A model generated the notes under the pieces. The model worked only from the letters and a program-made list of their open reading frames with translations, was not told where the DNA came from and searched no databases. Below are positions 2,817 through 22,616 of a DNA stretch of 28,832 bases, piece after piece. Positions within the stretch are counted from its first letter, which is position 1. Each line of letters opens with the position of its first letter. The stretch is from an uncultured Candidatus Sumerlaeota bacterium (lineage in GTDB: Bacteria > Sumerlaeota > Sumerlaeia > SLMS01 > CAYUNT01), in contig CAYUNT010000034.1 of the NCBI GenBank assembly GCA_964446285.1, positions 1-28,832 on the forward strand. The letters run 5' to 3'. Both the position numbers and the translations under genes were made by a program.

Positions 2817-3930
2817 ATGCTATCCGATGCCATTCAGATTCTTGCCGCGATGAAGACGAAAACCGAAGAAAATCGGAGGTATCTTTGACCTCGATAGCCG
2901 AAAATCGCGCCTTCAGGAACTTGATGCACTGACGCAGCAACCGCAATTCTGGGGTGATCAGACGGGCAGCAAGGCGGTGATGAAAGAGATTAAACGCCTG
3001 AAATCCGTGATCGGACCTTGGGATGCGCTGGCGAAAAACATCGGAGACACGTTGGAACTGGCCGAGCTCCTTAAAGAGGAAGGGACTCTGGAGGGGCCGG
3101 ATGTGGAACAGATCGAGCGGGAGGCGCGTGAGATTGAAACACGCGCGCATGATCTCGAATTCCGCTCGATGATGAGCGACGAAGCCGACATCCTCAACTG
3201 CTTCATAAACATTCACCCGGGCGCGGGCGGCACCGAGTCGCAGGATTGGTCGCAGATGCTCCTGCGCCTGTATTTGCGCTGGGCGGAGCGCCACGGCTTC
3301 GAGGTGCATGAACTCGATCTCGACGACGGCGAAGTCGCTGGGATCAAGAATGCGACAATTCATGTCATCGGGGAATATGCATATGGCTACTTGAAAGGCG
3401 AAACGGGCGTCCACCGGCTGGTGCGCATTTCGCCATTCGACGCCAATGCGCGCCGCCACACGTCGTTTTCGGCCGTGTATGTGTCGCCCGAGGTGGATGA
3501 ATCCATCGAGATCGAAGTTAACGAAAAGGACATCCGCCTGGACTCATTCCGCGCGGGCGGGAAGGGCGGCCAGAAGGTCAATAAAACCACAAGCGCCGTG
3601 CGAATCACGCACTTCCCTACAGGCATTGTGGTGCAGTGCCAGAACGAGCGCTCGTGGCATCAGAACCGCGAGATGGCCTTCAAGGTTCTCCGCTCGCGAT
3701 TGTATGAATATGAGCTAAAACGGCGCCGCGCGGAACTGGACAAACTTGAATCGCAAAAGGCCGACATCAATTTTGGCTCGCAAATCCGCAACTATGTTCT
3801 GCATCCATATCAGCTTGTGAAAGACCTGCGGACGGACGTGGAGACGTCAGACACGCAAGGCGTTCTCGACGGCGAAATCGACGAATTCATCGAGGCGCTG
3901 CTCAAGCAAGGGATGAAGTCGGTTAAGTAG
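2817..3930 (+). CDS. prfB: Peptide chain release factor 2. It is encoded in two frames joined by a programmed +1 ribosomal frameshift: 2817..2885 in frame 0, then 2887..3930.
   Basis: Frame 0 from ATG 2817 reads MLSDAIQILAAMKTKTEENRRYL and then hits TGA at 2886-2888. The +1 frame continues DLDSRKSRLQELDALTQQPQFWGDQ...SPFDANARRHTSF...GGQ...NKTTSAVRITHFPTGIVVQCQ. This is the RF2 domain organisation with the GGQ motif. The track ORF 2977..3930 is the downstream part only. Confidence 0.9.
2875..2889 (+). promoter_or_regulatory. prfB autoregulatory +1 frameshift site: internal SD-like GGAGG, then 3-nt spacer (TAT), then CTT TGA C
   Basis: The sequence GGAGGTATCTTTGAC at 2875-2889 almost matches the E. 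coli prfB frameshift cassette (AGGGGGTATCTTTGAC). The in-frame UGA is followed by C, which is the weak-termination context. Confidence 0.85.
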
Positions 3931-4051: not shown

Positions 4052-7000
4052 TTAGGAGTGCGATGCCTTGGGATGACTTTGCAGTTGGGCATTTATCCAT
4101 AGTTCGATTTCCGGGGCAGGCGCTGGTTTCTGGAAGTAGAAGCCCTGGACAAAATCACATCCAAGATGCCGCACTTTTTCGAGCTGGGCTTCTTCTTCCA
4201 CGCCTTCGGCAATAACTCGCAGGCCAAGATTGTGGCCCAGCGAGACGACAGAACGCACGATTTCCATGCTCTTTGACTCTTGTTCGATGCCCAGGATCAG
4301 GGAACGGTCGATCTTGAGCGCATCGAGCGAAAACTGCCGCAAATACGATAGCGAAGAATACCCGCTCCCAAAATCGTCCACAACCAGGCGCACGCCCAGC
4401 CGGTGAAGAACTCCCAGCACTTCCGTGGTATATTCAGGGTTTTTCATAAGGGAAGACTCGGTCAATTCAAGCCACAACATGCCTGGTTCCGTGGCGGCCT
4501 CGCCCAGCGCCTTTTGCACCTTATCCACGAGCAGGGGGTCCGTGAACTGGCGCATGGAAAGATTGATGGCGATTGATATTGGGCAATTGGCAGGCAAACG
4601 CTGGCGCCATGCACGCAACTGTTTGCACGATTCTCTGAGCACCCAGGTTCCCAGAGGGACAATCAGGTCCGTATCTTCCGCGATGGCTATCAGCTCGCCC
4701 GGGGTGAGCAGGCCCAGTTGCGGATGACGCCACCGCAAGAGAGCCTCCAGCCCGATTTCATTGTGGCCATTGAGCGGCATGATTGGCTGGTAATGCATTT
4801 CGAGTTCGCGCCCTTGGAGGGCGCGGCGAAGACCGCTTTCCAACTCGAGCTGGTGGATTGTCTGCTTGTGCATTGCTTCATCGAAAATGGCGCTTAATCC
4901 CCGCCCGAGAGCCTTGGCTCGATACATGGCAATTTCCGCGTTGCGAAGCAGACCCTCAGCCTGTTCCTCCTTGGGGGATCCGAAGGCCACTCCGACGCTC
5001 GCGGTCACATGCAGACTGCGTTCCTGAATCCAGAATGGCTGTTCAAGCACCTCGTGGATTCGGTCGGCCAGGCGCAACGCGGCGCTTTCGCCAGGGATGT
5101 CGTCGAGCAGGATAACAAACTCATCCCCGCCGGGGCGCGCGATTGTATCGCCGGGGCGGAGAAGCGAAGCAAGGCGGTGGCCAATTTCCATCAGCAAGCG
5201 GTCTCCGGCGGAATGGCCCAGGCTGTCATTCACATTCTTGAAGCGATCCATGTCCGCCAGGAGAATGGCGAATTGATATTTCTCGCGCCCTCGCGCCCGC
5301 TCCAGGCATTGCCCAATGCGGTCCATCAAAAGAGTCCGGTTGGGCAAATCCGTCAGGCTGTCGTGGAAAACATGGCGGACGATGCGTTCTTCGGCCTGTT
5401 TGCGATCTGTCACATTGCGCACAATCGCAAGAACGCGGTTCTGGCCGCATGGAACGACCCGGGCCTCAAAATAGGCCAGCTTTCCCCGAATGCGCAGTGG
5501 ATATTCGATAACCTGCATTTCCCGGGTTTTCAAGGCGCGCTCCTGCGCCAGCGCATGAATTCCCGCCAGGCTTTCTGGAAAGATTTCCCGGAAGTTTTTG
5601 CCCAGAAACGACTCGGCTGGCATGAGGAGGTCCTCTTCGTTGCGAGCGTGATAGTCCAGGAATACGCCATCCGCGCTCATTAAAAACATCATGTCCGGCA
5701 GGGCATGGAGCAAGGCGCGGTTTCTTGCCTCGCTCTCACGCAGGGCATCGTCCGCGCGCGCCGCGTCCAGCGCATTGGTCAGTATTTCTCCGACAATTTT
5801 CAGCAGCGCCACCACATCGTCCGGCCATGTTTTCTCTCTGCGAACCGCGTCGAATCCCAAAAATCCAACCAGGTTGCCGCGCGTGATCATTGGCACAGCA
5901 ACCAGGGAATGCACACCTTGCGCTTCGAGCATTGCTTTTTCCGTGCTGGCCTCCGCGGGCATTTGCGGCACGCGCGGAATAAGGATGATTCTGCCTGAGC
6001 GCAATTGGCTCATCCACCAGGGAATGGATTTTACCGGAATATCCTGAAGATTTTCTTTTTGCGGCTCGATGCCTTCCGCGCACCATTCGTGCGTGTTGCC
6101 GATAGATTCTCCGCCAGGCAGAATGTCAAAAATATAACTCCGATCCGCCTGGACAAAGGCGCCAATTTTCGCGAGCGATTGTTCGATTTCCGCATCCAGT
6201 TGCTCCTCGGGAACGGAGATGAACCGGGTGGAAATAGAGGTAATTAAACGCTCGAATTGTATTCGGTAGCGAAGGGCTTCTTCCGCCTTTTTGCGGTCGC
6301 GGTCCTCAATATGCAATGCAATCAGGTCGGCAACAGAGCCAGCGAATTCCTGCTCCGCCAGGGTCCACTTGCGAGCGGGTCCGATATGTTCATGGCACAC
6401 AACACCCACAACACGCCCGCCAATTCGAATCGGCGCGTCCATGAGGGCGCCGATTCCCAAAGGTATGAGATAATCAGCACTGAATTCCTGAGTTCGCGGA
6501 TCGTTTGGCGCATCCGAAGCCACCAGAGCGCGTTCCGATTCCAGCGCCTTAAAATAGGTGGGGAAAGAATCCACTATCAGGTCGGGCGCATGGGTGTGTT
6601 CCTTGACTCCGGAATCGAACAGGTCCCTGCCAACAAGACGGGTGTGATCGTCTGAAAAGAACCAGACGCCAACTCGCTGCACTTCGATGGTGCGGGCGGC
6701 CATTTCCGTGAGTTGATGAATAATATCATCGAGGTTGCCGCTTTCGCGCAGCGTGCGCAGGGAAAATTCCGCCAGGGCGGGGACTTGGCGGCGCAGACGG
6801 TCGTCATTCTCCCGCATGGTCCGAACTTCCTCGCATTCGAGGCGCGCTTCTTCCAAACCCTGCAAAGTATGATTTATGGATTCGCCCAGTTGGCCCAGTT
6901 CATCACTGCCTTCCGCTTCTACGCGGCCAGAAAAGTCGCGCTCGCGCGCGATGCGTCCCAGACCCTCGCTCAGGCGCGCCAGGCGCGCGAGCACGAGCCG

Positions 7001-7927
7001 TTCGAGCAGCCCAATTCCCAATACTCCAAACAGCACGCCAATGGCCGCCAATAGAAGGAGGTAAGACCAGAAGGTGGTCCGGCCTTCTATGTAAATGGCC
7101 GGAGTTCTGCTGGCCATCAGCAGGAGGGCGGGCTTGTCCTCCACGTCGCGAATTACACCAAACCCGCTCACCTCATTTGGCGTTACGGGAAGGATAAGGA
7201 TCGATTCGCGCCCTTTCAGCCGGTTCAAAATTTCCTCGTCCATATTCAATGGCGGGCTGGCGAAAGGAAAACCCCGGAGCGATATCCGCATCGCCTGGCC
7301 CGCGCGCTGAACCTCATCATCGTCCACCCATCTCCCCATGACAAAAATACCCCGGGGCGGCCCCTTCTTTTTGGAGGTCAGAATCGGGCAGGCGGCTAGC
7401 ATCGCCGTCTTGTTGTGAACAGATAACAAACCAGAAAATGCGTTGTTGGCTGCCCCCTTGGAGCGCCGCAAGAGCGCGCTATGAACAGCGCGAATGATCG
7501 CTTCCTCCGCCTCTTGCGGTTCTCCTTCCCTGGTTGCGCTATCGAATTGAAGCGCTCGGACGCTTGCGAAGGATTGGTCGAAAAGTATCACGAAATTGAC
7601 ATGGAGGTCCAGAAGCGTTGCGCCTGAAAGGTTGGATTGAATAAACGTTTCATCCCGGCTTTGCAAAAATGCGTAGGTATCGTCCCAGTTGGCATAGTCC
7701 TTTGTCGTAGCCATCAGGTTTTTCTGTTCGATAGAAAAGTATTCAAATACCTGCCCTACGGCATATCGCATCTCCTGTTCTTCCAGGTTGGCGAAACTGC
7801 CCAGCAGAACTTGGCGGGAGATAAAATACAGCCCCACGCCCAGAATGGCCAGGGCCGCAACGAATATCACGAACGTTTTTCTGCGCAGACTCACAACCGG
7901 CGCCTCCGCCTGTGTCCGGTGTGCCAA
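4052..7927 (-). CDS. Membrane-bound c-di-GMP signalling protein. Order of parts: TM, periplasmic sensor domain, TM, HAMP, two GAF-like domains, PAS, GGDEF (intact GGDEF and RxxD I-site), EAL (intact EAL and DDFGSG).
   Basis: 1291-aa ORF. TM helices at about aa 18-37 and 284-304. HAMP-like segment aa 305-360. Sequence ...LLRPGDTIARPGGDEFVILLDD at aa 924-940. Sequences EALLRWRHP (aa 1061) and VVDDFGSGYSSLSYL (aa 1182). The annotated start is a TTG at 7927. A better-supported start is the GTG at 7891, which is preceded by GGAGG plus an 8-nt spacer. Confidence 0.85.
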   Translation of the reverse strand: MAHRTQAEAPVVSLRRKTFVIFVAALAILGVGLYFISRQVLLGSFANLEEQEMRYAVGQVFEYFSIEQKNLMATTKDYANWDDTYAFLQSRDETFIQSNLSGATLLDLHVNFVILFDQSFASVRALQFDSATREGEPQEAEEAIIRAVHSALLRRSKGAANNAFSGLLSVHNKTAMLAACPILTSKKKGPPRGIFVMGRWVDDDEVQRAGQAMRISLRGFPFASPPLNMDEEILNRLKGRESILILPVTPNEVSGFGVIRDVEDKPALLLMASRTPAIYIEGRTTFWSYLLLLAAIGVLFGVLGIGLLERLVLARLARLSEGLGRIARERDFSGRVEAEGSDELGQLGESINHTLQGLEEARLECEEVRTMRENDDRLRRQVPALAEFSLRTLRESGNLDDIIHQLTEMAARTIEVQRVGVWFFSDDHTRLVGRDLFDSGVKEHTHAPDLIVDSFPTYFKALESERALVASDAPNDPRTQEFSADYLIPLGIGALMDAPIRIGGRVVGVVCHEHIGPARKWTLAEQEFAGSVADLIALHIEDRDRKKAEEALRYRIQFERLITSISTRFISVPEEQLDAEIEQSLAKIGAFVQADRSYIFDILPGGESIGNTHEWCAEGIEPQKENLQDIPVKSIPWWMSQLRSGRIILIPRVPQMPAEASTEKAMLEAQGVHSLVAVPMITRGNLVGFLGFDAVRREKTWPDDVVALLKIVGEILTNALDAARADDALRESEARNRALLHALPDMMFLMSADGVFLDYHARNEEDLLMPAESFLGKNFREIFPESLAGIHALAQERALKTREMQVIEYPLRIRGKLAYFEARVVPCGQNRVLAIVRNVTDRKQAEERIVRHVFHDSLTDLPNRTLLMDRIGQCLERARGREKYQFAILLADMDRFKNVNDSLGHSAGDRLLMEIGHRLASLLRPGDTIARPGGDEFVILLDDIPGESAALRLADRIHEVLEQPFWIQERSLHVTASVGVAFGSPKEEQAEGLLRNAEIAMYRAKALGRGLSAIFDEAMHKQTIHQLELESGLRRALQGRELEMHYQPIMPLNGHNEIGLEALLRWRHPQLGLLTPGELIAIAEDTDLIVPLGTWVLRESCKQLRAWRQRLPANCPISIAINLSMRQFTDPLLVDKVQKALGEAATEPGMLWLELTESSLMKNPEYTTEVLGVLHRLGVRLVVDDFGSGYSSLSYLRQFSLDALKIDRSLILGIEQESKSMEIVRSVVSLGHNLGLRVIAEGVEEEAQLEKVRHLGCDFVQGFYFQKPAPAPEIELWINAQLQSHPKASHS
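4103..4840 (-). other. EAL (c-di-GMP phosphodiesterase) domain of the sensor protein, roughly aa 1030-1275
   Basis: Residue counting places the EAL domain here. EAL, DDFGSG, ELTE-like and EGVE motifs are all present. Confidence 0.65.
4898..5374 (-). other. GGDEF (diguanylate cyclase) domain of the sensor protein, roughly aa 852-1010
   Basis: Located by residue counting. GGDEF motif at aa 933-937 (nt about 5117-5131). The RPGD I-site ends 5 residues upstream. Confidence 0.65.
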
Positions 7928-8252: not shown

Positions 8253-10109
8253 ATGCACCTCGTGGAACTCAATTGGATCGACTGGGTGGTCATCGTTGCC
8301 TATTTTGTGATCTCGCTTGCGGTGGGTCTGTATTACAGCAAACGCGCCGGATCGAGCCTTGTGGAGTATTTCATTTCGGGACGCTCACTGCCCTGGTGGG
8401 TGGCGGGCACCTCGATGGTGGCGACGACATTCGCCGCCGACACGCCGCTGGCCGTGACAGGCCTGGTGGCCAAATTCGGCTTGGCGGGCAACTGGTTCTG
8501 GTGGGCGATGGCCGTCGGCGGAATGCTGACTGTGTTTGTGTTTTCGCGCCTGTGGCGGCGCGCCGAGGTGCTCACCGACGTGGAATTGATCGAGATGCGC
8601 TATAGCGGGCGCCCCGCGGCTTTCCTGCGCGGATTTCGCTCGATTTATCTCGCTCTGCCCATCAACTGCATCATCATGGGCTGGGTGACGAGCGCGATGG
8701 TAAAGGTGCTCAAGGTGACGGTATTTGCCGGTTCCGCCGCGGCGGCATCGGGAGACAAAGACCTTCTCATCATCGCCGCCTGTCTGATCGTCGTGGGGAT
8801 TTACAGCGCGCTTTCGGGGTTGTGGGGCGTTGCCATTACGGACTTTATCCAATTCATCATGGCGATGGGCGGATGCATTCTGCTGGCGGTTCTTGCCGTG
8901 CGGCGCGTTGGGGGAATGGAAGCGCTGCAATCGCAAGTGGCCACGAATTTCGGCAGCGGCGATCAGGCGTTTCGCTTTTTCCCCGATTTCTCCCAATCCG
9001 GGGCATGGATGCCGCTTCAGATGTTTCTGATCTATCTGTTCGTGATTTGGTGGGCCTCGTGGTATCCGGGCGCCGAGCCGGGCGGCGGCGGATACGTGGT
9101 GCAGCGCATGGCGTCGTGCAAGGACGAACGCCATTCGCTGCTGGCCACCTTATGGTTCCAGGTGGCACATTACTGCGTGCGCCCGTGGCCGTGGCTTCTG
9201 GTAGCGTTCGCGGCGCTCGTGATGCATCCCGAACTGCGAACCAACTGGATCAAGGACCCCGGTTACGATCCGGGAATTGGCTTCCCGATGCTGATGCGCG
9301 ACCTGCTTCCGGCGGGGTTGCGCGGATTGCTGCTTGTGGCGTTTTTTGCGGCGTTTATGTCCACGCTGGCCACGCAGATCAACTGGGGCGCATCGTATTT
9401 GGTGAGCGATTTTTACAAACGATTTGTGCGGCCGGACGCGAGCGAGAAACAGCTGGGCAAGATGTCGCGCTGGGCCACAGTGCTGATGCTCGTCTGCGGC
9501 GGCGCCACTGCGCTGTGGATGGTCAAGGCGAACGTCTCGGTCGATGCGGCCTGGAAATTCCTGGCGGCGCTCGGGGCGGGCGCGGGGGCCGTGTTTATCC
9601 TGCGATGGTTCTGGTGGCGCATCAACGCCTGGTCCGAAATCGCGGCGATGGTGGCCTCACTCGTGTATTTTGTGTTTTTCAAGGTGCTAGGATTTGTTTT
9701 GGTGAAAATTGGCGGTCCGAAAGCCCTGCCCGCGGTGCTGGCGACCGATGAGTATCTGCTGGCGCTTGTGGCCGCGCTCACCGTGCCTACGTGGCTGGTG
9801 GTTACATTCGTTACGCGCCCCGAGCCGATGGAGACTCTCAAACAATTCTTCCGCAAAACGCGCCCCGGGGGGCCGGGATGGGGTCCGGTGGCGCGCCAGC
9901 CGCCCGATGCGAAGGGCGACCAAAACCTGGGTCTTTCGATTGCGTGCGCTCTGCTGGGCATTGCGCTTGTGTATTTTACCCTGCCCGGCCTTGGGTATTT
10001 GCTGTTTGGCCAGTATGGAAAAGCGATCGCATGTCTTTGTGGTTCTGTAATCTGCGGCGCGGGGATTGTGTTCCTGCTCAACCGCAGTTGGAAAGAAATC
10101 GCGCGCTAG
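8253..10109 (+). CDS. Sodium:solute symporter (SSS/SLC5 family) permease
   Basis: 618-aa polytopic ORF. The N-terminal region ...YFISGRSLPWWVAGTSMVATTFAADT... fits the SSS family signature. A GGAAAGGG SD-like run lies immediately upstream of the ATG. Confidence 0.85.
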   Translation: MHLVELNWIDWVVIVAYFVISLAVGLYYSKRAGSSLVEYFISGRSLPWWVAGTSMVATTFAADTPLAVTGLVAKFGLAGNWFWWAMAVGGMLTVFVFSRLWRRAEVLTDVELIEMRYSGRPAAFLRGFRSIYLALPINCIIMGWVTSAMVKVLKVTVFAGSAAAASGDKDLLIIAACLIVVGIYSALSGLWGVAITDFIQFIMAMGGCILLAVLAVRRVGGMEALQSQVATNFGSGDQAFRFFPDFSQSGAWMPLQMFLIYLFVIWWASWYPGAEPGGGGYVVQRMASCKDERHSLLATLWFQVAHYCVRPWPWLLVAFAALVMHPELRTNWIKDPGYDPGIGFPMLMRDLLPAGLRGLLLVAFFAAFMSTLATQINWGASYLVSDFYKRFVRPDASEKQLGKMSRWATVLMLVCGGATALWMVKANVSVDAAWKFLAALGAGAGAVFILRWFWWRINAWSEIAAMVASLVYFVFFKVLGFVLVKIGGPKALPAVLATDEYLLALVAALTVPTWLVVTFVTRPEPMETLKQFFRKTRPGGPGWGPVARQPPDAKGDQNLGLSIACALLGIALVYFTLPGLGYLLFGQYGKAIACLCGSVICGAGIVFLLNRSWKEIAR

Positions 10110-10123
10110 GCGGCGGCAAATCT

Positions 10124-10156
10124 GCTGTCAATTATTGAGCACTTGCAGCTTTTTTC
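10124..10156 (+). terminator. Candidate intrinsic terminator after the symporter gene: imperfect 7-bp stem (gctgtcaa / ttgcagc), 11-nt loop, T6 tract
   Basis: Read directly: gctgtcaattattgagcacttgcagcttttttcgg. The stem has a 1-nt bulge. It sits at the left edge of the lower-GC island. Confidence 0.3.
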
Positions 10157-10167
10157 GGAGAAGTTTT

Positions 10168-10578
10168 ATGGCCGACGTGTTTTCTAAAAGAAAACGCTCG
10201 CAGGTAATGTCGGCCATCCGGTCGAAAGGCAACAAGGACACTGAGATTCGGCTCGCCGCCATTTTTCGCGCCCACAAGATAACTGGCTGGCGGCGGAGCC
10301 AAAATCTGCTTGGGAAGCCCGACTTTGTATTCCGAAGGGAACGTCTAGCCGTATTTGTGGATGGCTGCTTTTGGCACGGCTGCCCCAAACACGGCCGGAA
10401 ACCGGATTCCAACCGCGACTACTGGCTTCCCAAACTTGAGCGCAACCGCAAACGGGACGCGGAGGCGGGTCGCGCGCTTCGCAAGAAAGGCTGGCATGTT
10501 TTAAGGATTTGGGAGCATGATCTTCGGCGGGAAGAATGGGTGGCCGGGCGAGTGCGCCGGGCACTGAATGCAGGCTGA
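10168..10578 (+). CDS. vsr: Very-short-patch repair endonuclease (Vsr), a T:G mismatch nicking enzyme
   Basis: Internal ATG at 10168 gives MADVFSKRKRSQVMSAIRSKGNKDTEIRLA...LLGKPDFVFRRERLAVFVDGCFWHGCPKHG...DYWLPKLERNRKRD...GWHVLRIWEHDL. This tracks E. coli Vsr along its whole length (FVDGCFWH, PDFV, WE motifs). SD GGAGAAG plus a 4-nt spacer precedes it. Confidence 0.85.
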   Translation: MADVFSKRKRSQVMSAIRSKGNKDTEIRLAAIFRAHKITGWRRSQNLLGKPDFVFRRERLAVFVDGCFWHGCPKHGRKPDSNRDYWLPKLERNRKRDAEAGRALRKKGWHVLRIWEHDLRREEWVAGRVRRALNAG

Positions 10579-10622
10579 GGGATGCGGCAGATTATCATGT
10601 TCTGATGTAGAGCGAGCAGCCA

Positions 10623-11609
10623 ATGAATTTTTCGGCAATCGAGATTTGCGCTGGCGGTGGCGGCCAAGCCCTTGGTTTGGAGATGGCCGGTTTCTGCCAT
10701 GAAGCTCTTGTGGAATATGAACCACACTTCTGCGCCACGCTCCGTGCGAACCGCCCGCATTGGAATGTGCTTTTGAAGGATATAAGAGAATTTCAATGTG
10801 AGGAATATGCTGGCATTGATTTGGTGGCCGGTGGTGTGCCCTGTCCTCCGTTCAGCATCGCAGGCAAGCAGCTGGGCGCGGAAGATGACCGGGATATGTT
10901 TCCGGCGGCGCTCGACATCGTTGCGCGAATCCGCCCGCGCGCTGTTATGTTTGAGAATGTTCCCGGACTGGCGGCGGCGAAGTTTGAAGAATACCGCCAA
11001 AACCTGATGGCCCGGCTCTGCAGGCTCGGATATAGCCCCGCATGGAAAGTACTTCAGGCCGCGCACTATGGCGTCCCGCAGCTCCGCCCGCGTTTTGTGC
11101 TGGTGGCGCTCCGTACGCGCGAGGCCGAATTCTTCCGGTGGCCCGCGCCATCCCTGGCATTTCGCACAGTTGGCGAGACTCTTGTGGATTTGATGAGCGC
11201 AAACGGCTGGCCCGGAGCGGGTTATTGGGCGCGCAAGGCGGCGGGAATCGCGCCAACTCTTGTTGGCGGATCAAAGAAGCACGGCGGGCCAGACCTTGGC
11301 CCCACCCGAGCCAAGCGCCAATGGCGCGAACTGGGAGTGGATGGCATGGGCATTGCCGACAAGGCGCCGGACAAGTCGTTTCCGAAGGACGGACTGCCCC
11401 GCCTGACCCTGCGCATGGCCGCTCGAATCCAAAGCTTCCCCGATACTTGGGCTTTTATGGGCGGCAAAACGATTGCTTACCGCCAGATTGGAAACGCGTT
11501 CCCGCCGTTGCTGGCCAGCGCGATGGGTATGGCCTTGCGGCGGGCGCTTGCACACCAAATCTATACGGCTGTCGAAAAAAAGGTTTTCGCGGGAGTTAGC
11601 GAGCCATAA
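10623..11609 (+). CDS. DNA (cytosine-5)-methyltransferase, Dcm/Type II C5-MTase class
   Basis: Motif I IEICAGGGG, motif IV GVPCPPFS (PCxxFS), motif VI ENV (VMFENVPGL), and motif X QIGNAFPP near the C-terminus. 328 aa, which is the size of monospecific type II C5-MTases. Confidence 0.85.
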   Translation: MNFSAIEICAGGGGQALGLEMAGFCHEALVEYEPHFCATLRANRPHWNVLLKDIREFQCEEYAGIDLVAGGVPCPPFSIAGKQLGAEDDRDMFPAALDIVARIRPRAVMFENVPGLAAAKFEEYRQNLMARLCRLGYSPAWKVLQAAHYGVPQLRPRFVLVALRTREAEFFRWPAPSLAFRTVGETLVDLMSANGWPGAGYWARKAAGIAPTLVGGSKKHGGPDLGPTRAKRQWRELGVDGMGIADKAPDKSFPKDGLPRLTLRMAARIQSFPDTWAFMGGKTIAYRQIGNAFPPLLASAMGMALRRALAHQIYTAVEKKVFAGVSEP

Positions 11610-11630
11610 GCATGACTGTGGGGGATAACA

Positions 11631-12203
11631 ATGCAGGGAAAGAAATCCTCAAAAAGAAAAATACTGGAATTCCTGCTCGCCAACAAGGGACGCGTCATTG
11701 AAAGCCGTGAAATTCAAGAGGCATCCGGATGGGTGGCGGAATGGGCACGGCGTGTCAGAGAACTCAGGGATGAAGAAGGCTATCAAATCTTGTCACATAA
11801 GGATCGAGCTGACCTGAAACCTGGCCAGTATTTAGTTGAAACGGAAAAGCGCCGTCCATCTTTTCATCGCGATATTTCCAAAGAAACGCGAGCAGCCGTT
11901 TTGGAGAGGAACGGATACACCTGCCAGATGTGCGGGGTGGCGGCAGGGGATCCGGACCCGTATCATTCGGGCCGTTCGATACGTCTGACAATGGGGCATA
12001 TCATCGACAAGTCCAAAGGCGGAGATGATTCCCTGTCGAATTTGCGCGCGGTTTGCACAAACTGCAATGAAGGGCTGCAAAACGCGGCCCTTCCCAAGCC
12101 AGACAGAATCTGGCTCCTGGCTCAGGTCCGCCGCGCGACGATTGACGATCAGAAGGCCGTCCTCGACTGGCTTCTTCGCAAATTTGGCGGCGGGCAAAAG
12201 TAA
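11631..12203 (+). CDS. HNH-family nuclease with an N-terminal winged-helix-like DNA-binding domain. Candidate restriction endonuclease partner of the adjacent MTase.
   Basis: C-terminal ...ISKETRAAVLERNGYTCQMCG...TMGHIIDKSKGGDDSLSNLRAVCTNCN. This shows two CxxC zinc ligand pairs, the catalytic His in GHIID, and the Asn in SNLRA, which together form the classic HNH bba-Me zinc finger. The N-terminal 85 aa (KRKILEFLLANKGRVIESREIQEASG...) is wH-like. Lowest-GC gene in the window, judged by eye. Confidence 0.8.
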   Translation: MQGKKSSKRKILEFLLANKGRVIESREIQEASGWVAEWARRVRELRDEEGYQILSHKDRADLKPGQYLVETEKRRPSFHRDISKETRAAVLERNGYTCQMCGVAAGDPDPYHSGRSIRLTMGHIIDKSKGGDDSLSNLRAVCTNCNEGLQNAALPKPDRIWLLAQVRRATIDDQKAVLDWLLRKFGGGQK

Positions 12204-12357
12204 AGCCGCTCCATCACCTGCGTGATTTTGTTCGATTCGCATGGCTGATCTTGGTCCGCTTGCCAACCTTCCGCCCGTCATGCTAGTCAGTAAGGGAGTG
12301 GGGAGCGGAAAGGGAAGGAATACGCCAAGGCGTTGTCTTTGGAGGGATTATAGAGGC

Positions 12358-14596: not shown

Positions 14597-17500
14597 TCAT
14601 GGATAGCAATTCCATGTAAGGGAAGCCTGGGTTGGGTGTTCGGGATACAGGGATATTCCCCAACCTCCTCCTGGCAGCGGAGAGCGGAACAGCGGACCGG
14701 ATCCAACGCTGTTGGAAGAAACGATCTGGCGATCGCCCGAAAGCGGATCAATGCCAATGACCGTATTGTTGCCTGCTGCATATAGAGTGCCGTCATATCC
14801 GATTTCGACATCGCTGCTGGAAGGCAGGGCAGGCCCGCTCCCACGACCGCCTGTGAATGCTCCCGAGACCAGCGTCACAGCGCCCGTCAGCGGATTCACT
14901 TGATAAAGAGCCGGATAATCACCAGCAAGCAGATAGGCCAGGAGCATGTTATCCCAGTTAATCGCCAGCCCGGAAAGATTATAAAGCGAGGCGATCAGGG
15001 TGCGGTTTCCGGTTGCAGGATCCACAAGCATAGGTCCCTTGCTTGAGGCCACGTAGATCGAACCGGTTGACTGAACGGCCGCATCAAGACCGGAAATGGG
15101 TGTTGGACCGGTTCCAATGATGTCAGAGGAAATGATTTGCCGGTATCCCGTTGCCGGATTTAGGAGAATAACCTCCGACAGGCTCGTGCTGGGGAAGACA
15201 AGATTGCCGTTTTCGTCCAAATCAGCGTGCCTGGCGTTCTTCCATTCCGGTCCCAACCCGTCGTTGGTGGCCGCGATGATGGTCCGATTACCGGTTCGAA
15301 TATCCACGCGGAAAATTCGACCGGTTTCGATCGTCGGAGCATCGAAGAGATACAAAGTATCCGGGGCCTTCCAAATCAGCCCGGCGGTGCAAAAGAAAGG
15401 AGGTCCTTCTCCGCGCCGCCAATCCGAAACCACGGCTCGGTTTCCGGTCACGCGGTCCACGCATAGAATACCGAGTCCATCGCTTATGCAGATCGAATTG
15501 CCCCATTGGTTTTTGTTAATCACGTTGATATGACAGTGATTTCCTGTAAGCGACTGGCTATCGGCGGTTACGGTGAAGGAGAATATATCCTGAGCGTTCG
15601 AGAAGCCCGCATGGCGATAGGAGATGCGCCCCATATTAATATCCTCCTGGGTAAACGTGTTATCCAGGGTGGTCATTGCCGTTCCGTTTCGCATAAGGGT
15701 TCCGTGCAAAGGCAGCGCGACAATCGAATACTGGATGGCAGAAGGCGGCGTGTCACTATCGAGAACATGCAGCTGCCGTTGCGTAAGGGCGGCGGATTCG
15801 CCGCGAAGGACAGTCAGGTCTTCATTTTCCGTCAGGGTCGGGGCCGCCAGTCCTCCGTTAATCCACACCTGGCATCCGCTTCCATACGGCTCGGCAATAA
15901 ACAGGTCGGGAGAGAGGTCACCATTCAAATCGCCGCATGCAATGTCGATGCCCCCTGCAACCGGCGGAAGGAACAGGGAGAAATTCCCCGATCCGTCGTT
16001 GAGCCATATCGTGCTTCGCGCAGAGGACGAATAGGTAACGGCAATCAGGTCCTCATCGTCATCGCCATCGATGTCCTTGAAGAGAACATTTTCGCTTTCC
16101 ACGGAACTGCCCAGGAACTGGCTCGATTCGGAAAAGTTGCCGGTTCCGTCATTGATCCACAGGAAAACCGGCTTTTGGAAAGCCGCGCCGCCCAGGGCAA
16201 CGTCCAAATCACCATCGCCATCCACGTCGCCCATGGCCACTGCTGTGGCGCTATAACTTCCCAGCACCTGGGCGCCGGCAGAGAAGTTGCCGGAGCCGTC
16301 GTTTATCCATACATCATTGTGACCAGACGAGGTGGCTGCGACGGCATCCATATCCCCGTCGCCATCTACGTCGCCAAGGGCCACAGCGTTGCTGACTGAA
16401 TTCCCGAGGAGCTGGTGGACAGAAAACACTCCATATCCGTTGTTGAAATACACGATATCCGGGCGCGAGGTACCAGGACCGATATTGGCCACATAAGCAT
16501 CCAGGTCGCCGTCATTGTCCAGGTCTCCGAGCGCCCCGTCGGACCCGCTCTGATTGCCCAGGTATTGACCGGAATCTGCAAAATGGCCTGTGCCGTCGTT
16601 GAAATAGACTCGATTGCCCAGCCCGAATCCGTTGATTTCAAGGGCATCGGGGAAGCCATCGCCGTTCAGATCGCCCAGCACAACCCGGTTCGCGGCATTG
16701 GATCCGATCGCCTGGCCGCTATCGGAAAAGAATCCGTTCCCGTCGTTAAGCAGAACCCGATTGGGAGGATCATAGCCGCCAGCCAGGCAAGACAGGAAGG
16801 CATCCAAATCTCCATCCCCATCAAGATCCGCCAGAGAAACGCCCGAGACGTTGGATGTGCTCAGGCGTTGCCCGCTGTCTGCAAATCCAGAAAATGGCCC
16901 GGCGCTTGAACCGATCACTTGCACCGGCAGGAGACGCATGACCTGCTGAGTTTCTGAACTGGAAATTTCGCGGGCCGATGCCGTTACGCGCAGACAAAAA
17001 TCATAAGGATTGCCGAAGGGAGGCTTGATGGCCAGCCCCGCCAGGCTCGATGAAGGGATTTCATACGCGCCAGGCCCCCCCGGCGTGCCTGCGTTGTGTT
17101 GGGCTCCGGAAGGTATGCCATCGATCGTAATCGTCAGTTGCTCCGAGCCATCCGTATCCTGCAATGAGGCCGTGATAGACAGCGGAATAAACGTATCCAT
17201 CGCACCCGAGGCGGGAGAAACCGCGAGAAGCGGGGCGTCCGTTACCGGGCTGATCTGGACAGAAACTGTTGCGGATGCGCTTGGGCTGTTTCCGTCAAAG
17301 GCATGATAAGTGAATTGAATCGTTCCCGAGTAGTTCGCGGCTGGCACGAGGTTGAATGCCCCGTCACTGTTCAATTGAAAGGACCCAACCGGAGAGGGCG
17401 GCGTATCCAGGATGGCTTGAATGGAAGAATTATCCGGATCGTGATCATTGCTCAAAACCCCTGGAGCGGCAACGCTGAGAGGCTGATCTTCCGTACCTGA

Positions 17501-19498
17501 ATAGGAGTCGGCCTCCGCCACCGGCGGGTCATTGATGGCCTGGACTACGACAGCTCCCGACGCGGTCCCCTCCTGGGTTCCAGCCAGCAAATGAGACAAT
17601 ATGCAGCTAATGGTTCTTGTGTTCTGGTTGGGGTTATTGGTTGTGTGCTCGTAGGTCAGATGGGTCATCACGCTTTGCACCGCTTCCAGAGATGCATTAT
17701 CGGACGTAAAGTCTATTGTCAGCGGAGTGCTATAGTTGCCTTCAGAGAAGGTTCCGATTTCGACCCCGCCGTAAGTAATGACGCTCCCAGAGATGCCCAA
17801 CTGGCCCGGCCCGGCGCCTTCATTGCGAATTGCCAGGCTGTCGCCGGTTTGGCCGTTGGTTTGAAGCGAAACCGTCAATCGCCGGTTCCTGAGGTTTGTT
17901 TCATCCCCGTCCGTTATGGTTGCGCTCAGGAACAGCGTGACAGCACTGGAATCCTCGACATACGTGGGATTTGCCGCAACGGCGGAAAAGGCAGTTGGCT
18001 CATCATCCAGGGCGAGGACGAGTTTCTTCGTATTGTAATCGACGTCGATGATGTCCAGGTCGCCGTCGCCGTCGAAATCGGCCATGGCCGCCACATAGTT
18101 GGTGCGGTTGGGCAGGTAGGAACCCTGGAAGACCAGGTTTCCCGCGCCATCATTTCTCCACGCGGTAAGCGGAGTGTTCGTGAACGCATTGATAATCAGA
18201 ACGTCTGGATAGCCGTCGCTGTTGAAATCGTCCGACATATATTCAAAAGGCTGGTAATTACTGGGAATGATGCTGCTGTCGGATTGCGTGAAGGCGCCGG
18301 CCCCGTCGCCCTGATACACCCGCATGTTGAGATTGGGAGAGTTAATGACTCCCATGTAAATATCGGCGTTTCCGTCCTGCTTGGCATCCGCGGCGGCAAA
18401 ACGCTGGACGATATTGTAATAGCTTCGGGATAGCTGGGTAAGCGTCCCATCCCCGTTATTGGTAAAAACAAAGAGATCGGTGCCGCCTTGAGCCAGGACA
18501 TCCAGTTTGCCGTCGTTGTTCACATCCTCGAAAAGCGCGTATTGGCCATTGCTGGAAAGGCTCTTGGATGTGAGGAGTGAAAACGAGTTCGATCCATTGT
18601 TGCGATAAACATAAACAGCATAGCTGGACGATCCCGTAAAAGCAAAGTCCAGGGCGCCGTCTCCATCGAAATCCCCAACGCTCAATTCTTTGGGTTCTGC
18701 CGTCGTGGTGGAACTGCTCAGCAGCGAGAAGACCCCCGAGCCGTTGTTCCGGTAAATATCCACTCGATTCGGGCTTTTTCCCGCAACCATCACATCCAGA
18801 TTGCCGTCGCGGTCAAAGTCAGCCGCTTCCAGCCGGCCCGATACGCTTCCGAGATTGAAACTGCTCACATTCTCGGTAAATGTCCGATCCCCGTTGTTGT
18901 GATAGAAAGCCAGTTTGTAAGTCAAGTTGCCAAGGATGGCCACAAAATCCATCTGACCATCGTGATCGAAATCACCCGGAATCAATTTAACAGGATCCGC
19001 ATAAGCCGAGAAATTGCGGTATTCTTTCCAATCCATGCGGCCGGCTTCGGAAGCCGTTCCGATTCGATACTTATACTGGTAAGGAATGAGCGGAGTATCC
19101 AAATGGTCTTTTACGCCAGCCAGCAAAGCGACGGTGACCACTTCTCCGTAGTTGAAATTCCTGTCCGGGTGAAGTGTCACAGTTTTTCCCGCCGCGTTGT
19201 AAAGGAATGAACTTGAAGATACGACGCCTGTCAAACTTCCATGCACGAGAATGTTCGTGTTGTTCAGCGTCGGAGTGCTCATATCATCGCTGAAAGTAAT
19301 CGCGATATCCGCACTCGGCGAAACGTGATTGGCCATTCGTGACGGAACGTGAGAGACAACAGAAACAGCAGCCCCTGCCAGGGGGATGCAGGCCAGCAGG
19401 ACAACGGCCAGGCCGGCGAAGATTTCGCGGGTAAAACGGCGGCGATTTGCACACTTTCCAATCACTTTTCTTGCTCCCAAATGAATTCTTTTCCTCAC
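14597..19498 (-). CDS. Giant secreted or surface protein. Order of parts: N-terminal signal/anchor, Ig-like domain, FG-GAP-repeat beta-propeller, VCBS/cadherin-like domain, second FG-GAP propeller, cadherin-like domain, C-terminal 6-bladed beta-propeller.
   Basis: 1633-aa ORF. More than 15 FG-GAP/Ca-binding repeats ([46 protein letters not shown]...). A cadherin-like VCBS block ([39 protein letters not shown]...[14 protein letters not shown]). The C-terminal region carries a motif repeated six times: (V/I)DPxTGNRxxI(S/A). The start is a GTG at 19498. An alternative GTG 33 nt downstream is preceded by GGGAG. Confidence 0.85.
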   Translation of the reverse strand: [1633 protein letters not shown]

Positions 19499-21731: not shown

Positions 21732-22538
21732 TTACTTGGCGCGGTATTCGATCGCGGCGGCTTCCTCAAATACCTGGAAGGTAAAGGATTCCGCGATATA
21801 GAGCGAAACCGAATCGCCCGCCGCGGCCGAGAATCCGATGGCGAAATCCTGGCCCACGGTGAGTTCGTAGTTGCCTTCGCGCCGCGAGAAAAGCAGCGCC
21901 CCGGCCACGGCCGGACTCCAGCGAATCTCGCCTCCGTGCAGAAGCGATGTGATGCGCTTTGCCAGCGGATAGCCCTGTTCGACGCCGCCCATCACCACCT
22001 GATACGCGCTCGAACCGAGCACGAGCTCGAACGGGCCGCCCAAACCGGACTTCTGAATGGCAATGATGCCCGATTCGACCGCCTCGGGATACCCATTCGC
22101 CGTTTTGGGAAGCGCGAGAGGCGCGTGGGGCGTCGCCTTGGCCATGCCCTGGATTCCGCCCTTTTCGTAGCCGAAATAGATCGCGGCTTCCTCGAAACAC
22201 GCGATCTTGGCGGCGGCCTTTTTAAGCGGGTCCAGATTGGGGGTTTTATAGCCGCGGCTGATCGCATCGAGTTCCGCGACACTCAGCGCGAAGGGAACCT
22301 GCACCTCGATCAGCGGCAGAACATCGCGCGCTCCGCAGAGCAGCTCTTTGTCTGCGCCGCTTGGCTGTAATTTGACTGTGCCCAAATTGACCGCGGCAAA
22401 TTGCGCGCCGTGCGGACCGCTAAAATTCACGAGGCTGCGCGCCGAGAGGTTTCCCTTCAGCGTGCGCCGCGCCTGTTCGTCGATTTCCTTCCACGCTTCA
22501 TCTGCGATGGGGGCGAGGGAACGTTTGAGTCTATCCAT
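21732..22538 (-). CDS. Family 1 encapsulin nanocompartment shell protein (HK97-fold, linocin M18-like)
   Basis: Start at internal ATG 22538 gives MDRLKRSLAPIADEAWKEIDEQARRTLKGNLSARSLVNF.GPHG. The protein is colinear with T. maritima encapsulin throughout (PLIEV...ELD...RG, GPFELVLG, YPLAKR...LHGGEIRWSP, ELTVGQDFAIGF, SFTFQV). SD GGAGA plus an 8-nt spacer precedes it. Confidence 0.9.
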   Translation of the reverse strand: MDRLKRSLAPIADEAWKEIDEQARRTLKGNLSARSLVNFSGPHGAQFAAVNLGTVKLQPSGADKELLCGARDVLPLIEVQVPFALSVAELDAISRGYKTPNLDPLKKAAAKIACFEEAAIYFGYEKGGIQGMAKATPHAPLALPKTANGYPEAVESGIIAIQKSGLGGPFELVLGSSAYQVVMGGVEQGYPLAKRITSLLHGGEIRWSPAVAGALLFSRREGNYELTVGQDFAIGFSAAAGDSVSLYIAESFTFQVFEEAAAIEYRAK

Positions 22539-22616
22539 GGTGAGAATCTCCTTTGTATGTGCTTTCTGCGGCATTGTCTTTCGCGAAATTGTTTTGCGGG
22601 AGCGATTCTATCCGAA

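What the first reader, a model, noticed from the sequence alone, without database searches (positions are those of the whole stretch)
10110..12240. Compact lower-GC island: vsr, C5 cytosine methyltransferase, wH-HNH nuclease, inserted between a symporter gene and a secreted HEAT-repeat protein gene
Three co-oriented genes sit in about 2.1 kb whose base composition looks clearly less GC-rich than the flanks. This is most obvious in vsr, the 5' half of the MTase gene, and the HNH gene. The gene set is a 5mC methyltransferase, a deamination-repair nickase and an HNH nuclease. Together these are the signature of a horizontally acquired Type II restriction-modification module that carries its own anti-mutagenesis function. 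No integrase, transposase or flanking direct repeats are visible, so how it was mobilised is unclear. The small monospecific MTase is 328 aa with a short target-recognition domain. Its target specificity is not identifiable by eye.
Basis: partly seen in the sequence, partly recalled or inferred. Interest (0 to 1): 0.6.

Follow-up and report, generated by a model that had tools for sequence, protein, structure and literature searches.

The report
Restriction-modification module with Vsr repair nickase
This is an ordinary three-gene bacterial defence cassette: a cytosine methylase closely related to the gonococcal M.NgoMIV (target GCCGGC), a small HNH nuclease that very likely cuts the same site when it is unmethylated, and a Vsr nickase that repairs the mutations 5-methylcytosine causes; the one mildly new point is that the nuclease belongs to a widespread family I found no cleavage data for.

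Summary
The three co-oriented genes are real: vsr 10168-10578, a C5-cytosine methyltransferase 10623-11609 and a winged-helix-HNH nuclease 11631-12203.

The "low-GC island" is weak. GC is 0.569 against a window mean of 0.58, and pooled codon usage is host-like. Only the HNH gene is low.

The Type II restriction-modification reading is supported:
- In 80 genome loci from more than 10 phyla, HNH homologues (73-82% identical) have a methyltransferase immediately upstream in 79. It is this C5 type in 33 and an SPPY-motif (N4-cytosine-type) enzyme in 46.
- Vsr occurs only with the C5 type (8/28 against 0/37).
- Flanking genes differ in nearly every genome, and DNA homology stops at the cassette's coding ends. 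The module is therefore horizontally spread.
- Synonymous sites are saturated, so the acquisition is old and ameliorated.

New here: the methyltransferase is 60% identical over its full length to the methyltransferase encoded directly upstream of R.NgoMIV. Its plasmid relatives pair with NgoMIV- or NaeI-family nucleases. The predicted target is therefore GCCGGC, with the HNH enzyme as a third, non-homologous nuclease class for that site.

An empty-site test could not be run, and nothing was tested biochemically.

The parts
10110..10167 (+). 58-nt spacer between the symporter stop codon and vsr, containing a GGAG ribosome-binding site at 10157-10160.
   Evidence: Sequence read directly. No promoter-like or terminator-like site is called in this spacer; the nearest terminator-like hits lie inside the symporter or vsr coding sequence and are at chance level. 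No repeat is shared with the downstream spacer beyond chance. The spacer lies outside the block homologous to other loci, which starts at 10168.
10168..10578 (+). vsr: very-short-patch-repair T:G mismatch nicking endonuclease, 136 aa.
   Evidence: TIGR00632 119 bits (cut-off 97.9) and PF03852 70 bits. Aligns to E. coli Vsr (PDB 1CW0) over residues 2-125 at E 4e-17, with the GCFWH block conserved at residues 66-70, nt 10363-10377. It is 59-68% identical to the Vsr genes placed upstream of the methyltransferase in 6 other loci of this module.
10623..11609 (+). C5-cytosine DNA methyltransferase, 328 aa; an M.NgoMIV orthologue with predicted target GCCGGC.
   Evidence: PF00145 203 bits. Motif I AGGGG (residue 10), motif IV PCPPFS with the catalytic Cys74 (nt 10839-10856), motif VI ENV (111), motif VIII QLRPR (153) and motif X GNAFP (290) are all present and invariant in 35 family members, as is the target-recognition block GGSKKHGGPDLGPTR. 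It is 60% identical over its full length (E 6e-138) to the N. gonorrhoeae methyltransferase directly upstream of R.NgoMIV.
11631..12203 (+). Winged-helix-HNH nuclease, 190 aa; the predicted restriction endonuclease of the module.
12204..12357 (+). 154-nt spacer between the HNH stop codon and the called start of the HEAT-repeat protein gene.
   Evidence: Public gene call, sequence. No terminator-like site or repeat of note. It lies outside the block homologous to other loci, which ends at 12189.

Best explanation
The three genes form a vsr-M-R Type II restriction-modification cassette.

Inferred mechanism:
- The methyltransferase, an orthologue of M.NgoMIV, puts a C5 methyl group on a cytosine in GCCGGC on host DNA.
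- The 190-aa nuclease reads the same site through its N-terminal winged-helix domain, probably as a homodimer. Its zinc-stabilised HNH (H-N-N variant) active site cuts the site when it is unmethylated, which destroys incoming phage or plasmid DNA.
- 5-methylcytosine deaminates to thymine. Vsr nicks 5' of the T in the resulting T:G mismatches so that short-patch repair restores the C. This offsets the mutational cost of the methylase.

Shown here:
- gene identities and intact motifs;
- orthology of the methyltransferase to the enzyme encoded next to R.NgoMIV;
- near-universal methyltransferase-HNH linkage across phyla;
- restriction of Vsr to the 5mC versions;
- different chromosomal contexts in different genomes.

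Inferred, not shown:
- that the nuclease is methylation-sensitive and GCCGGC-specific;
- dimerisation and cut position;
- co-transcription of the three genes.

The cassette reached this lineage by horizontal transfer, inserting as a bare gene block with no mobility genes. The host-like codon usage suggests this was long ago.
For: Gene identities and motifs.

Linkage of methyltransferase and nuclease:
- 404 species genomes encode a relative of the nuclease. The best 80 loci are 73-82% identical and come from Verrucomicrobiota, Acidobacteriota, Planctomycetota, Chloroflexota, Bacteroidota, Patescibacteria, Proteobacteria, Nitrospirota and one archaeon.
- 33 loci have this C5 methyltransferase and 46 have a PF01555 methyltransferase with an SPPY motif directly upstream. 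The remaining one is cut off by a contig end.
- More distant homologues (31-37% identical) in Rhodococcus, Sphingomonas, Halorussus and Pandoraea plasmids, and in Arthrobacter phage Soondubu, also sit beside C5 methyltransferases, often with Vsr.

Vsr association: 8 of 28 judgeable 5mC loci against 0 of 37 N4-type loci, p = 6e-4.

Specificity:
- The methyltransferase is 60% identical, target-recognition region included, to the one upstream of R.NgoMIV. That downstream ORF matches PDB 1FIU at E 1e-188.
- Plasmid homologues at 53-63% identity are followed by NgoMIV-family nucleases or NaeI-family nucleases. Both are GCCGGC enzymes; NgoMIV G|CCGGC is cited from PMC4081073.
- No NgoMIV- or NaeI-type nuclease occurs in the window or in any of the 86 HNH loci.
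- GCCGGC occurs 12 times in the window against 30.8 +/- 5.3 expected.
- An HNH plus GCCGGC-protecting 5mC methyltransferase pair was reported in Aeromonas prophage PhiO23A (PMC5446998).

Selection and age: against the nearest homologues, pS is 0.74-0.91 (saturated) and pN is 0.13-0.19 for the nuclease.

Horizontal spread: flanks are unrelated in nearly all loci, and DNA homology is confined to 10168-12189.
Against: - No biochemical or methylome data exist for this copy or, as far as I could find, for any member of this HNH family.
- The closest solved relatives of the HNH domain are modification-dependent enzymes (ScoMcrA, EcoKMcrA, TagI), although only at E about 1e-3.
- The alternative N4-type partner is 47% identical to M.Pac25I, whose target is CCCGGG. 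The family as a whole may therefore not have a single target. The two clades differ at three winged-helix positions: L15F, D47N and G65N.
- GCCGGC depletion is not unique. In the window, GCATGC and GGGCCC are more depleted, and several palindromes are similarly depleted in the host loci.
- Composition and codon usage give no sign of foreign origin.
- No empty site was found.
Confidence: 0.75

Rival explanations
1. The HNH protein is a modification-dependent (Type IV) nuclease of the McrA or winged-helix-HNH kind. It would attack foreign methylated DNA and merely sit next to an independent Dcm-Vsr pair.
For: - The best PDB sequence matches are ScoMcrA, EcoKMcrA and TagI, and PADLOC Type IV models hit weakly.
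- Winged-helix-HNH fusions of 224-283 aa have been characterised as 6mA-dependent Type IV enzymes (PMC11037411).
Against: - Those Type IV fusions lack a neighbouring methyltransferase in 87% of cases (PMC11037411). Here a methyltransferase is immediately upstream in 79 of 80 loci.
- That methyltransferase is replaced by one of a different chemical class at the same position, rather than being lost.
- No SRA, PUA/EVE or McrA-type sensor domain is detected.
- PADLOC Type II nuclease models score higher than the Type IV models: 48 and 40 bits against 21 and 19.
Confidence: 0.07
2. The cassette is a decayed remnant. The methyltransferase and Vsr work as an orphan epigenetic and repair pair, and this copy of the nuclease is inactive or unexpressed.
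For: Orphan 5mC methyltransferase plus Vsr pairs exist: E. coli Dcm-Vsr (established knowledge), and Caulobacter ScmA with a Vsr-like protein (PMC12907096). Codon usage is host-like, which suggests long residence. No expression data exist.
Against: The window copy keeps every residue that is invariant in 50 homologues, including the zinc ligands and H123, N137 and N146. The ORF is full length, with a purine-rich GGGG run (11621-11624) six bases upstream of its ATG. Family-wide pN is 0.13-0.19 with saturated synonymous sites, which shows strong purifying selection on the nuclease.
Confidence: 0.08
3. The HNH gene is a selfish homing-type endonuclease that has invaded next to a Dcm-Vsr pair. It would be functionally unrelated to methylation.
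For: HNH nucleases are common as free-standing homing genes in phages. Many weak phage hits are annotated simply as HNH endonuclease.
Against: A homing nuclease would not keep a fixed position downstream of two unrelated methyltransferase classes in 79 of 80 genomes. Only 3 of 2.9 million viral contigs carry a close relative. No intron, intein or disrupted target gene is present.
Confidence: 0.03
4. The methyltransferase is DruM of a type II Druantia system, and the locus is a Druantia fragment.
For: The PADLOC DruM2 model PDLC00029 matches the whole protein at 480 bits, E 8e-145.
Against: No DruE, DruF or DruG candidate exists. The neighbours are a symporter, a HEAT-repeat protein, a GGDEF/EAL sensor and an FG-GAP/cadherin protein. 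The same protein is 60% identical to M.NgoMIV, so the DruM model simply captures this methyltransferase subfamily.
Confidence: 0.01

Closest known systems
NgoMIV restriction-modification system of Neisseria gonorrhoeae (G|CCGGC)
   Same: The methyltransferase is an orthologue: 60% identity over 313 aligned residues, including the target-recognition region. The gene order is also methyltransferase then nuclease, and the predicted target is the same.
   Different: R.NgoMIV is a tetrameric PD-(D/E)XK Type IIF enzyme (PDB 1FIU) with no detectable similarity to the HNH protein. No Vsr gene is adjacent in the gonococcal locus, where the downstream ORFs are a PurK-like ATP-grasp protein and a GNAT acetyltransferase.
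NaeI restriction-modification systems (GCC|GGC), e.g. on Rhodococcus opacus pROB02 and a Loktanella plasmid
   Different: NaeI cuts with a PD-(D/E)XK domain, and its winged helix is a C-terminal effector-binding domain. No sequence or profile similarity to the window protein was found, so common descent of the two winged helices is not shown.
ORF48 (HNH) and ORF49 (5mC methyltransferase) of Aeromonas prophage PhiO23A (PMC5446998)
   Same: It is an HNH nuclease gene next to a C5 methyltransferase. That methyltransferase was shown experimentally to protect GCCGGC from PdiI. The authors proposed that the pair is a restriction-modification system.
   Different: The nuclease was not assayed. I could not obtain its sequence, so homology to the window protein is untested. 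No Vsr is described.
Characterised HNH Type II restriction enzymes (KpnI, Hpy99I, PacI, SphI, MnlI and others)
   Same: They share the beta-beta-alpha-metal HNH catalytic fold with Cys4 zinc sites, and several are small Type IIP homodimers (PMC4081073; PMC2441816).
   Different: No sequence match to Hpy99I or PacI structures was found in the PDB searches. Their recognition modules differ, and none is reported for GCCGGC.
EcoKMcrA, ScoMcrA, TagI and the winged-helix-HNH 6mA-dependent Type IV enzymes
   Same: These are the closest solved HNH domains by sequence, at E about 1e-3. The winged-helix-HNH architecture matches the haloarchaeal enzymes in PMC11037411.
   Different: Those enzymes need modified DNA and are mostly stand-alone. 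Many of them, including EcoKMcrA, TagI and the PUA-wH-HNH fusions, also carry a dedicated modification-sensor domain. The window family is tied to a protective methyltransferase.
E. coli Dcm-Vsr
   Same: Vsr is homologous (E 4e-17 to PDB 1CW0). The logic of pairing a 5mC methyltransferase with T:G repair is the same.
   Different: The E. coli pair has no linked nuclease and targets CCWGG (established knowledge). Here vsr precedes the methyltransferase gene and is separated from it by 44 nt.

Membership tests
Orthodox Type II restriction-modification system | Separate, adjacent methyltransferase and endonuclease genes. | tested here: met
   The methyltransferase gene (10623-11609) and the HNH gene (11631-12203) are 21 nt apart on the same strand. 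The adjacency holds in 79 of 80 homologous loci.
Orthodox Type II restriction-modification system | The endonuclease cuts the same sequence that the methyltransferase modifies, and is blocked by that modification. | not testable with these tools
   This needs cloning, cleavage assays and methylome data. The indirect support is replacement of the partner methyltransferase by another class at the same position.
C5-cytosine DNA methyltransferases (PF00145), M.NgoMIV subfamily | Conserved motifs I, IV (catalytic Pro-Cys), VI (ENV), VIII, IX and X. | tested here: met
   PF00145 203 bits. AGGGG, PCPPFS, ENV, QLRPR, RIQSFPD and GNAFP are present and are invariant or nearly invariant in 35 relatives. 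They align motif for motif with M.HaeIII.
C5-cytosine DNA methyltransferases (PF00145), M.NgoMIV subfamily | A target-recognition region like that of the enzyme partnered with R.NgoMIV, implying GCCGGC. | tested here: met
   60% identity over the full length, with near-identity across residues 180-245. The partner ORF of the reference methyltransferase is R.NgoMIV itself. The actual methylated sequence was not tested.
Vsr very-short-patch-repair endonucleases (TIGR00632, PF03852) | Family profile score above the curated cut-off, and the conserved GCFWH catalytic and intercalation block. | tested here: met
   119 bits against a 97.9 cut-off. The alignment to E. coli Vsr conserves GCFWH and the C-terminal GW.VL..WE block. 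Nicking activity was not tested.
HNH (beta-beta-alpha-metal) nucleases | A catalytic His, a metal-binding Asn and paired CxxC zinc ligands. | tested here: met
   PF01844 33.5 bits against a 21.4 cut-off. C98/C101, H123, N137, C142/C145 and N146 are invariant in 50 homologues.
Modification-dependent (Type IV) HNH enzymes | Stand-alone gene with no protective methyltransferase, plus a modified-base sensor domain. | tested here: not met
   A methyltransferase is adjacent in 79 of 80 loci, against 13% for the Type IV winged-helix fusions (PMC11037411). No SRA, PUA or EVE domain is found. Whether the winged helix senses methylation state was not tested.
NgoMIV and NaeI restriction endonuclease families | Sequence membership of the PD-(D/E)XK NgoMIV or NaeI (PF09126) families. 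| tested here: not met
   tblastn of R.NgoMIV and of a NaeI-family protein finds nothing in the window or in 86 loci. Pfam gives only HNH families for the nuclease. It may work on the same site, but it is not a member.
Druantia type II | DruM together with DruE, DruF and DruG. | tested here: not met
   Only the DruM model matches. The neighbouring genes are unrelated.
Compositionally atypical genomic island | GC content and codon usage outside the host range, with mobility genes or flanking repeats. | tested here: not met
   The island's GC is at the 37th percentile of equal-sized windows. Pooled codon usage is host-like. There are no repeats, tRNA genes or integrase.

The most novel reading that the evidence does not exclude
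The winged-helix-HNH protein would represent a third, structurally unrelated class of GCCGGC-specific restriction endonuclease, alongside the NgoMIV and NaeI classes, with no cleavage data that I could find. Its features would be as follows.
- It is conserved at 73-82% amino-acid identity across more than 10 phyla despite saturated synonymous sites, so it is more conserved than its own methyltransferase.
- Its partner was switched at least twice from a 5mC methyltransferase (sometimes with Vsr) to an N4-type methyltransferase (never with Vsr).
- The only clade-specific changes accompanying that switch are three residues in the winged helix.

That would make the family a natural experiment on the mutational cost of 5mC and on how a nuclease re-tunes to a different methyl mark or outer base. 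It might also provide a new cut geometry for GCCGGC.
Probability: 0.4. Interest if true: 0.5.

Novelty: new member of a known kind. Interest (0 to 1): 0.33.

Why it matters
For this genome, it is one more defence cassette, and it says little about the organism.

For restriction enzymology, it gives a concrete, testable assignment. An abundant putative nuclease family has 404 of about 185,000 species genomes and more than 6,000 protein clusters matching. That family can be tied to GCCGGC through its M.NgoMIV-type partner.

The family-wide pattern is clean comparative evidence that Vsr is recruited specifically to offset 5-methylcytosine deamination: 5mC partner with or without Vsr, against N4-type partner never with Vsr.

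It also warns that the PADLOC DruM2 model scores ordinary M.NgoMIV-type methyltransferases very highly.

Tried and rejected
1. Empty-site test. A metagenome scan with the symporter found only relatives at 63% identity or less, with no shared neighbours. A protein search with the HEAT-repeat protein returned nothing, probably because low-complexity words swamped the candidates.
2. Recognition site from palindrome avoidance. This gave no unique signal in the host flanks of 80 loci against 80 control loci, or inside 161 cassette genes against synonymous-codon shuffles. GCCGGC is depleted, but so are several other sites.
4. Names from large protein searches. No hit carried a REBASE-style name.
5. 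Phage carriage as the vehicle. Only 3 viral contigs carry a close relative.
6. The Druantia reading of the DruM2 hit is rejected for lack of partner genes.
7. Flanking repeats, tRNA genes, Rfam families, promoters and terminators. Nothing was above chance.
Full report
**Observation**

The window is a public metagenome contig that appears in four samples. Between a sodium:solute symporter gene (8253-10109) and a HEAT-repeat protein gene lie three co-oriented ORFs:
- Vsr, 10168-10578, 136 aa; TIGR00632 119 bits against a cut-off of 97.9.
- A C5-cytosine methyltransferase, 10623-11609, 328 aa; PF00145 203 bits.
- An HNH nuclease, 11631-12203, 190 aa; PF01844 and PF14279 both above cut-off.

The spacers are 58, 44, 21 and 154 nt.

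Within 10 kb on either side there is no integrase or transposase, no tRNA, no Rfam match, and no flanking direct or inverted repeat beyond chance.

**Composition**

The island's GC is 0.569. The two flanking genes are richer (0.605 and 0.625), but the window as a whole is 0.584, and 37% of equal-sized windows have GC at or below the island's.

GC3 of vsr and of the methyltransferase (0.635) is within the host range. Only the HNH gene is lowest (GC 0.532, GC3 0.565).

Pooled synonymous codon usage of the three genes is indistinguishable from host genes of similar length.

In 68 other hosts, the HNH gene averages 4.4 GC points below its surroundings while tracking host GC (r = 0.75, slope 0.45).

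The "low-GC island" is therefore a local contrast plus a family trait. It is not evidence of recent import.

**What the proteins are**

- *Methyltransferase.* It carries all the C5-methyltransferase motifs: AGGGG, PCPPFS with the catalytic cysteine, ENV, QLRPR, RIQSFPD and GNAFP. These, and a long block in the target-recognition region, are invariant in 35 relatives.
- *Vsr.* It aligns with E. coli Vsr over 124 residues and conserves the GCFWH block.
- *Nuclease.* It has two CxxC pairs plus H123, N137 and N146, all invariant in 50 homologues.
- *Nuclease model.* An AlphaFold2 model has mean pLDDT 74.5. It gives a confident N-terminal domain (residues 1-75, pLDDT about 90) with winged-helix topology, and a less confident HNH domain.

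**Is it a restriction-modification system?**

The nuclease has more than 6,000 matching protein clusters, and 404 species genomes encode a relative.

The best 80 genome loci are 73-82% identical. They come from Verrucomicrobiota, Acidobacteriota, Planctomycetota, Chloroflexota, Bacteroidota, Patescibacteria, Proteobacteria, Nitrospirota, Bdellovibrionales and one Methanotrichaceae archaeon.
- In 33 loci, this C5 methyltransferase (53-76% identical) lies immediately upstream.
- In 46 loci, a roughly 282-aa PF01555 methyltransferase occupies the same position instead. It carries an SPPY motif, which is typical of N4-cytosine enzymes.
- The one remaining locus is cut off by a contig end.

More distant homologues (31-37% identical) also sit beside C5 methyltransferases. 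They occur on Rhodococcus, Sphingomonas, Halorussus and Pandoraea plasmids and in Arthrobacter phage Soondubu.

A published survey of winged-helix nuclease fusions used exactly this criterion. Modification-dependent enzymes are stand-alone in 87% of cases, whereas methylation-sensitive ones need a neighbouring methyltransferase (PMC11037411).

Constant linkage, together with replacement of the partner by another chemical class rather than loss, is what a protective methyltransferase and its cognate nuclease would show.

**Vsr**

Among loci with enough flanking sequence to judge, Vsr is present in 8 of 28 with the 5mC methyltransferase and in 0 of 37 with the N4-type enzyme (Fisher p = 6e-4). 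This fits Vsr's established role in repairing T:G mismatches made by deamination of 5-methylcytosine. N4-methylcytosine does not deaminate to thymine.

**Target sequence**

The window methyltransferase is 60% identical over its full length (E 6e-138) to a 312-aa methyltransferase in N. gonorrhoeae. The ORF immediately downstream of that gene is R.NgoMIV itself, matching PDB 1FIU at E 1e-188.

Other plasmid homologues at 53-63% identity fall into three groups:
- Followed by NgoMIV-family nucleases: E. coli pNORD58_4, Acidovorax pAOVO02, Azonexus, Paracoccus pAES2 and Sulfitobacter.
- Followed by or clustered with NaeI-family nucleases: Loktanella and Rhodococcus pROB02, the latter confirmed by Pfam NaeI at 342 bits.
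- Followed by the winged-helix-HNH protein: Acidithiobacillus pGT2.

NgoMIV and NaeI both recognise GCCGGC. The NgoMIV site is cited from PMC4081073; the NaeI site is established knowledge.

None of the 86 HNH loci, nor the window, encodes an NgoMIV- or NaeI-type nuclease.

The methyltransferase is therefore predicted to modify GCCGGC, and the HNH protein to be a third, non-homologous nuclease class for that site.

Consistent observations, none decisive:
- GCCGGC occurs 12 times in the window against 30.8 +/- 5.3 expected. It is the third most depleted of 64 hexamer palindromes.
- In HNH-carrying loci its observed/expected ratio is 0.60, against 0.97 in control loci. Several other palindromes behave similarly.
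- A paper on Aeromonas prophage PhiO23A reported an HNH gene next to a 5mC methyltransferase that protects GCCGGC, and proposed that the pair is a restriction-modification system. The nuclease was not assayed (PMC5446998).

**A caveat on the family**

The N4-type partner is 47% identical to M.Pac25I. That enzyme is paired with an XcyI-family nuclease, and its target is CCCGGG.

On a neighbour-joining tree of the 80 nucleases, the 5mC-linked forms are basal and paraphyletic. The N4-linked forms make one derived clade plus one stray, so there were at least two switches (no bootstrap).

The two groups differ consistently at only three positions: L15F, D47N and G65N. All three are in the winged helix, and none is in the HNH domain.

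It leaves open whether the N4-linked clade still cuts GCCGGC or has moved to a related CCGG-core site.

**Origin and age**

Flanking genes are unrelated in almost all 80 loci. Only a few close relatives within Pyrinomonadaceae share flanks.

In the complete Pirellulaceae SH449 genome, the two-gene version sits between pheT and an aldose epimerase gene, with no mobility gene.

DNA similarity between the window and other loci is confined to 10168-12189, which runs from the vsr start to the HNH end.

These facts support spread by horizontal transfer as a bare cassette. However, the window copy is only 65-73% identical in DNA to its closest relatives. Synonymous sites are saturated (pS 0.74-0.91), while pN is 0.13-0.19 for the nuclease, 0.16-0.25 for the methyltransferase and 0.23-0.34 for Vsr.

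No sampled donor is therefore recent, and selection on all three genes is strongly purifying. Unusually for a restriction enzyme, the nuclease is the most conserved of the three.

Carriage on sampled phages is rare (3 viral contigs), and close homologues on plasmids are few.

How the cassette inserts remains unknown. The empty-site comparison could not be made.

**Verdict**

This is a new member of a known kind, a Type II restriction-modification cassette with Vsr, and its interest is modest. What is new here is the predicted GCCGGC specificity and the family-wide picture of an untested winged-helix-HNH nuclease with interchangeable 5mC and N4-type partners.

Noticed in passing
window 2874-2889 (prfB, ORF 2977-3930 +): The release factor 2 gene carries the canonical programmed +1 frameshift site, AGGAGG TAT CTT TGA C. 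The downstream PCRF/RF-1 ORF is in the +1 frame relative to the short upstream ORF.
   Followed up: partly
whole window: Two other palindromes are almost absent. GCATGC (the SphI site) occurs once against about 20 expected, and GGGCCC (the ApaI site) occurs 0 times against about 16 expected. Both are more depleted than GCCGGC. This suggests the organism carries, or long carried, other restriction systems with these targets.
   Followed up: no
window 10623-11609: The PADLOC Druantia type II DruM2 model (PDLC00029) matches this M.NgoMIV-type methyltransferase over its full length at 480 bits, with no other Druantia gene nearby. The model is therefore not specific to Druantia.
   Followed up: partly
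L002 3095-4453 (Pandoraea oxalativorans plasmid pPO70-1): A single annotated 452-aa 'Vsr' CDS matches Vsr in its N-terminal part and the winged-helix-HNH protein (37% identity, residues 2-147) in its C-terminal part. It lies directly downstream of a C5 methyltransferase gene. This looks like a natural Vsr::winged-helix-HNH fusion.
   Followed up: no
L171 2466-6325 (Rhodococcus opacus B4 pROB02): One cluster holds an M.NgoMIV-like methyltransferase, a winged-helix-HNH homologue, a NaeI-family nuclease and Vsr. That is two unrelated nucleases beside one methyltransferase.
   Followed up: partly
loci L007-L086 against window 11631-12203: The nuclease is more conserved than its partners. Against the closest loci it is 76-82% identical, compared with 66-76% for the methyltransferase and 59-68% for Vsr, with synonymous sites saturated. 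Restriction enzymes usually diverge faster than their methyltransferases.
   Followed up: partly
window 21732-22574 (-): An encapsulin shell protein gene (Linocin_M18, 252 bits) lies downstream of sugar-nucleotide genes. Its cargo was not examined.
   Followed up: no
window 4052-7927 (-) and 14597-19498 (-): Two very large genes flank the region. One is a 1291-aa CHASE4-HAMP-GAF-PAS-GGDEF-EAL signalling protein. The other is a 1633-aa FG-GAP/cadherin-repeat surface protein with lower GC (0.55) than most of the window.
   Followed up: no
L078 (Methanotrichaceae archaeon MAG): A 74%-identical copy of the nuclease, with the N4-type methyltransferase, occurs in an archaeal bin. If the binning is correct, this is a cross-domain transfer.
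   Followed up: no
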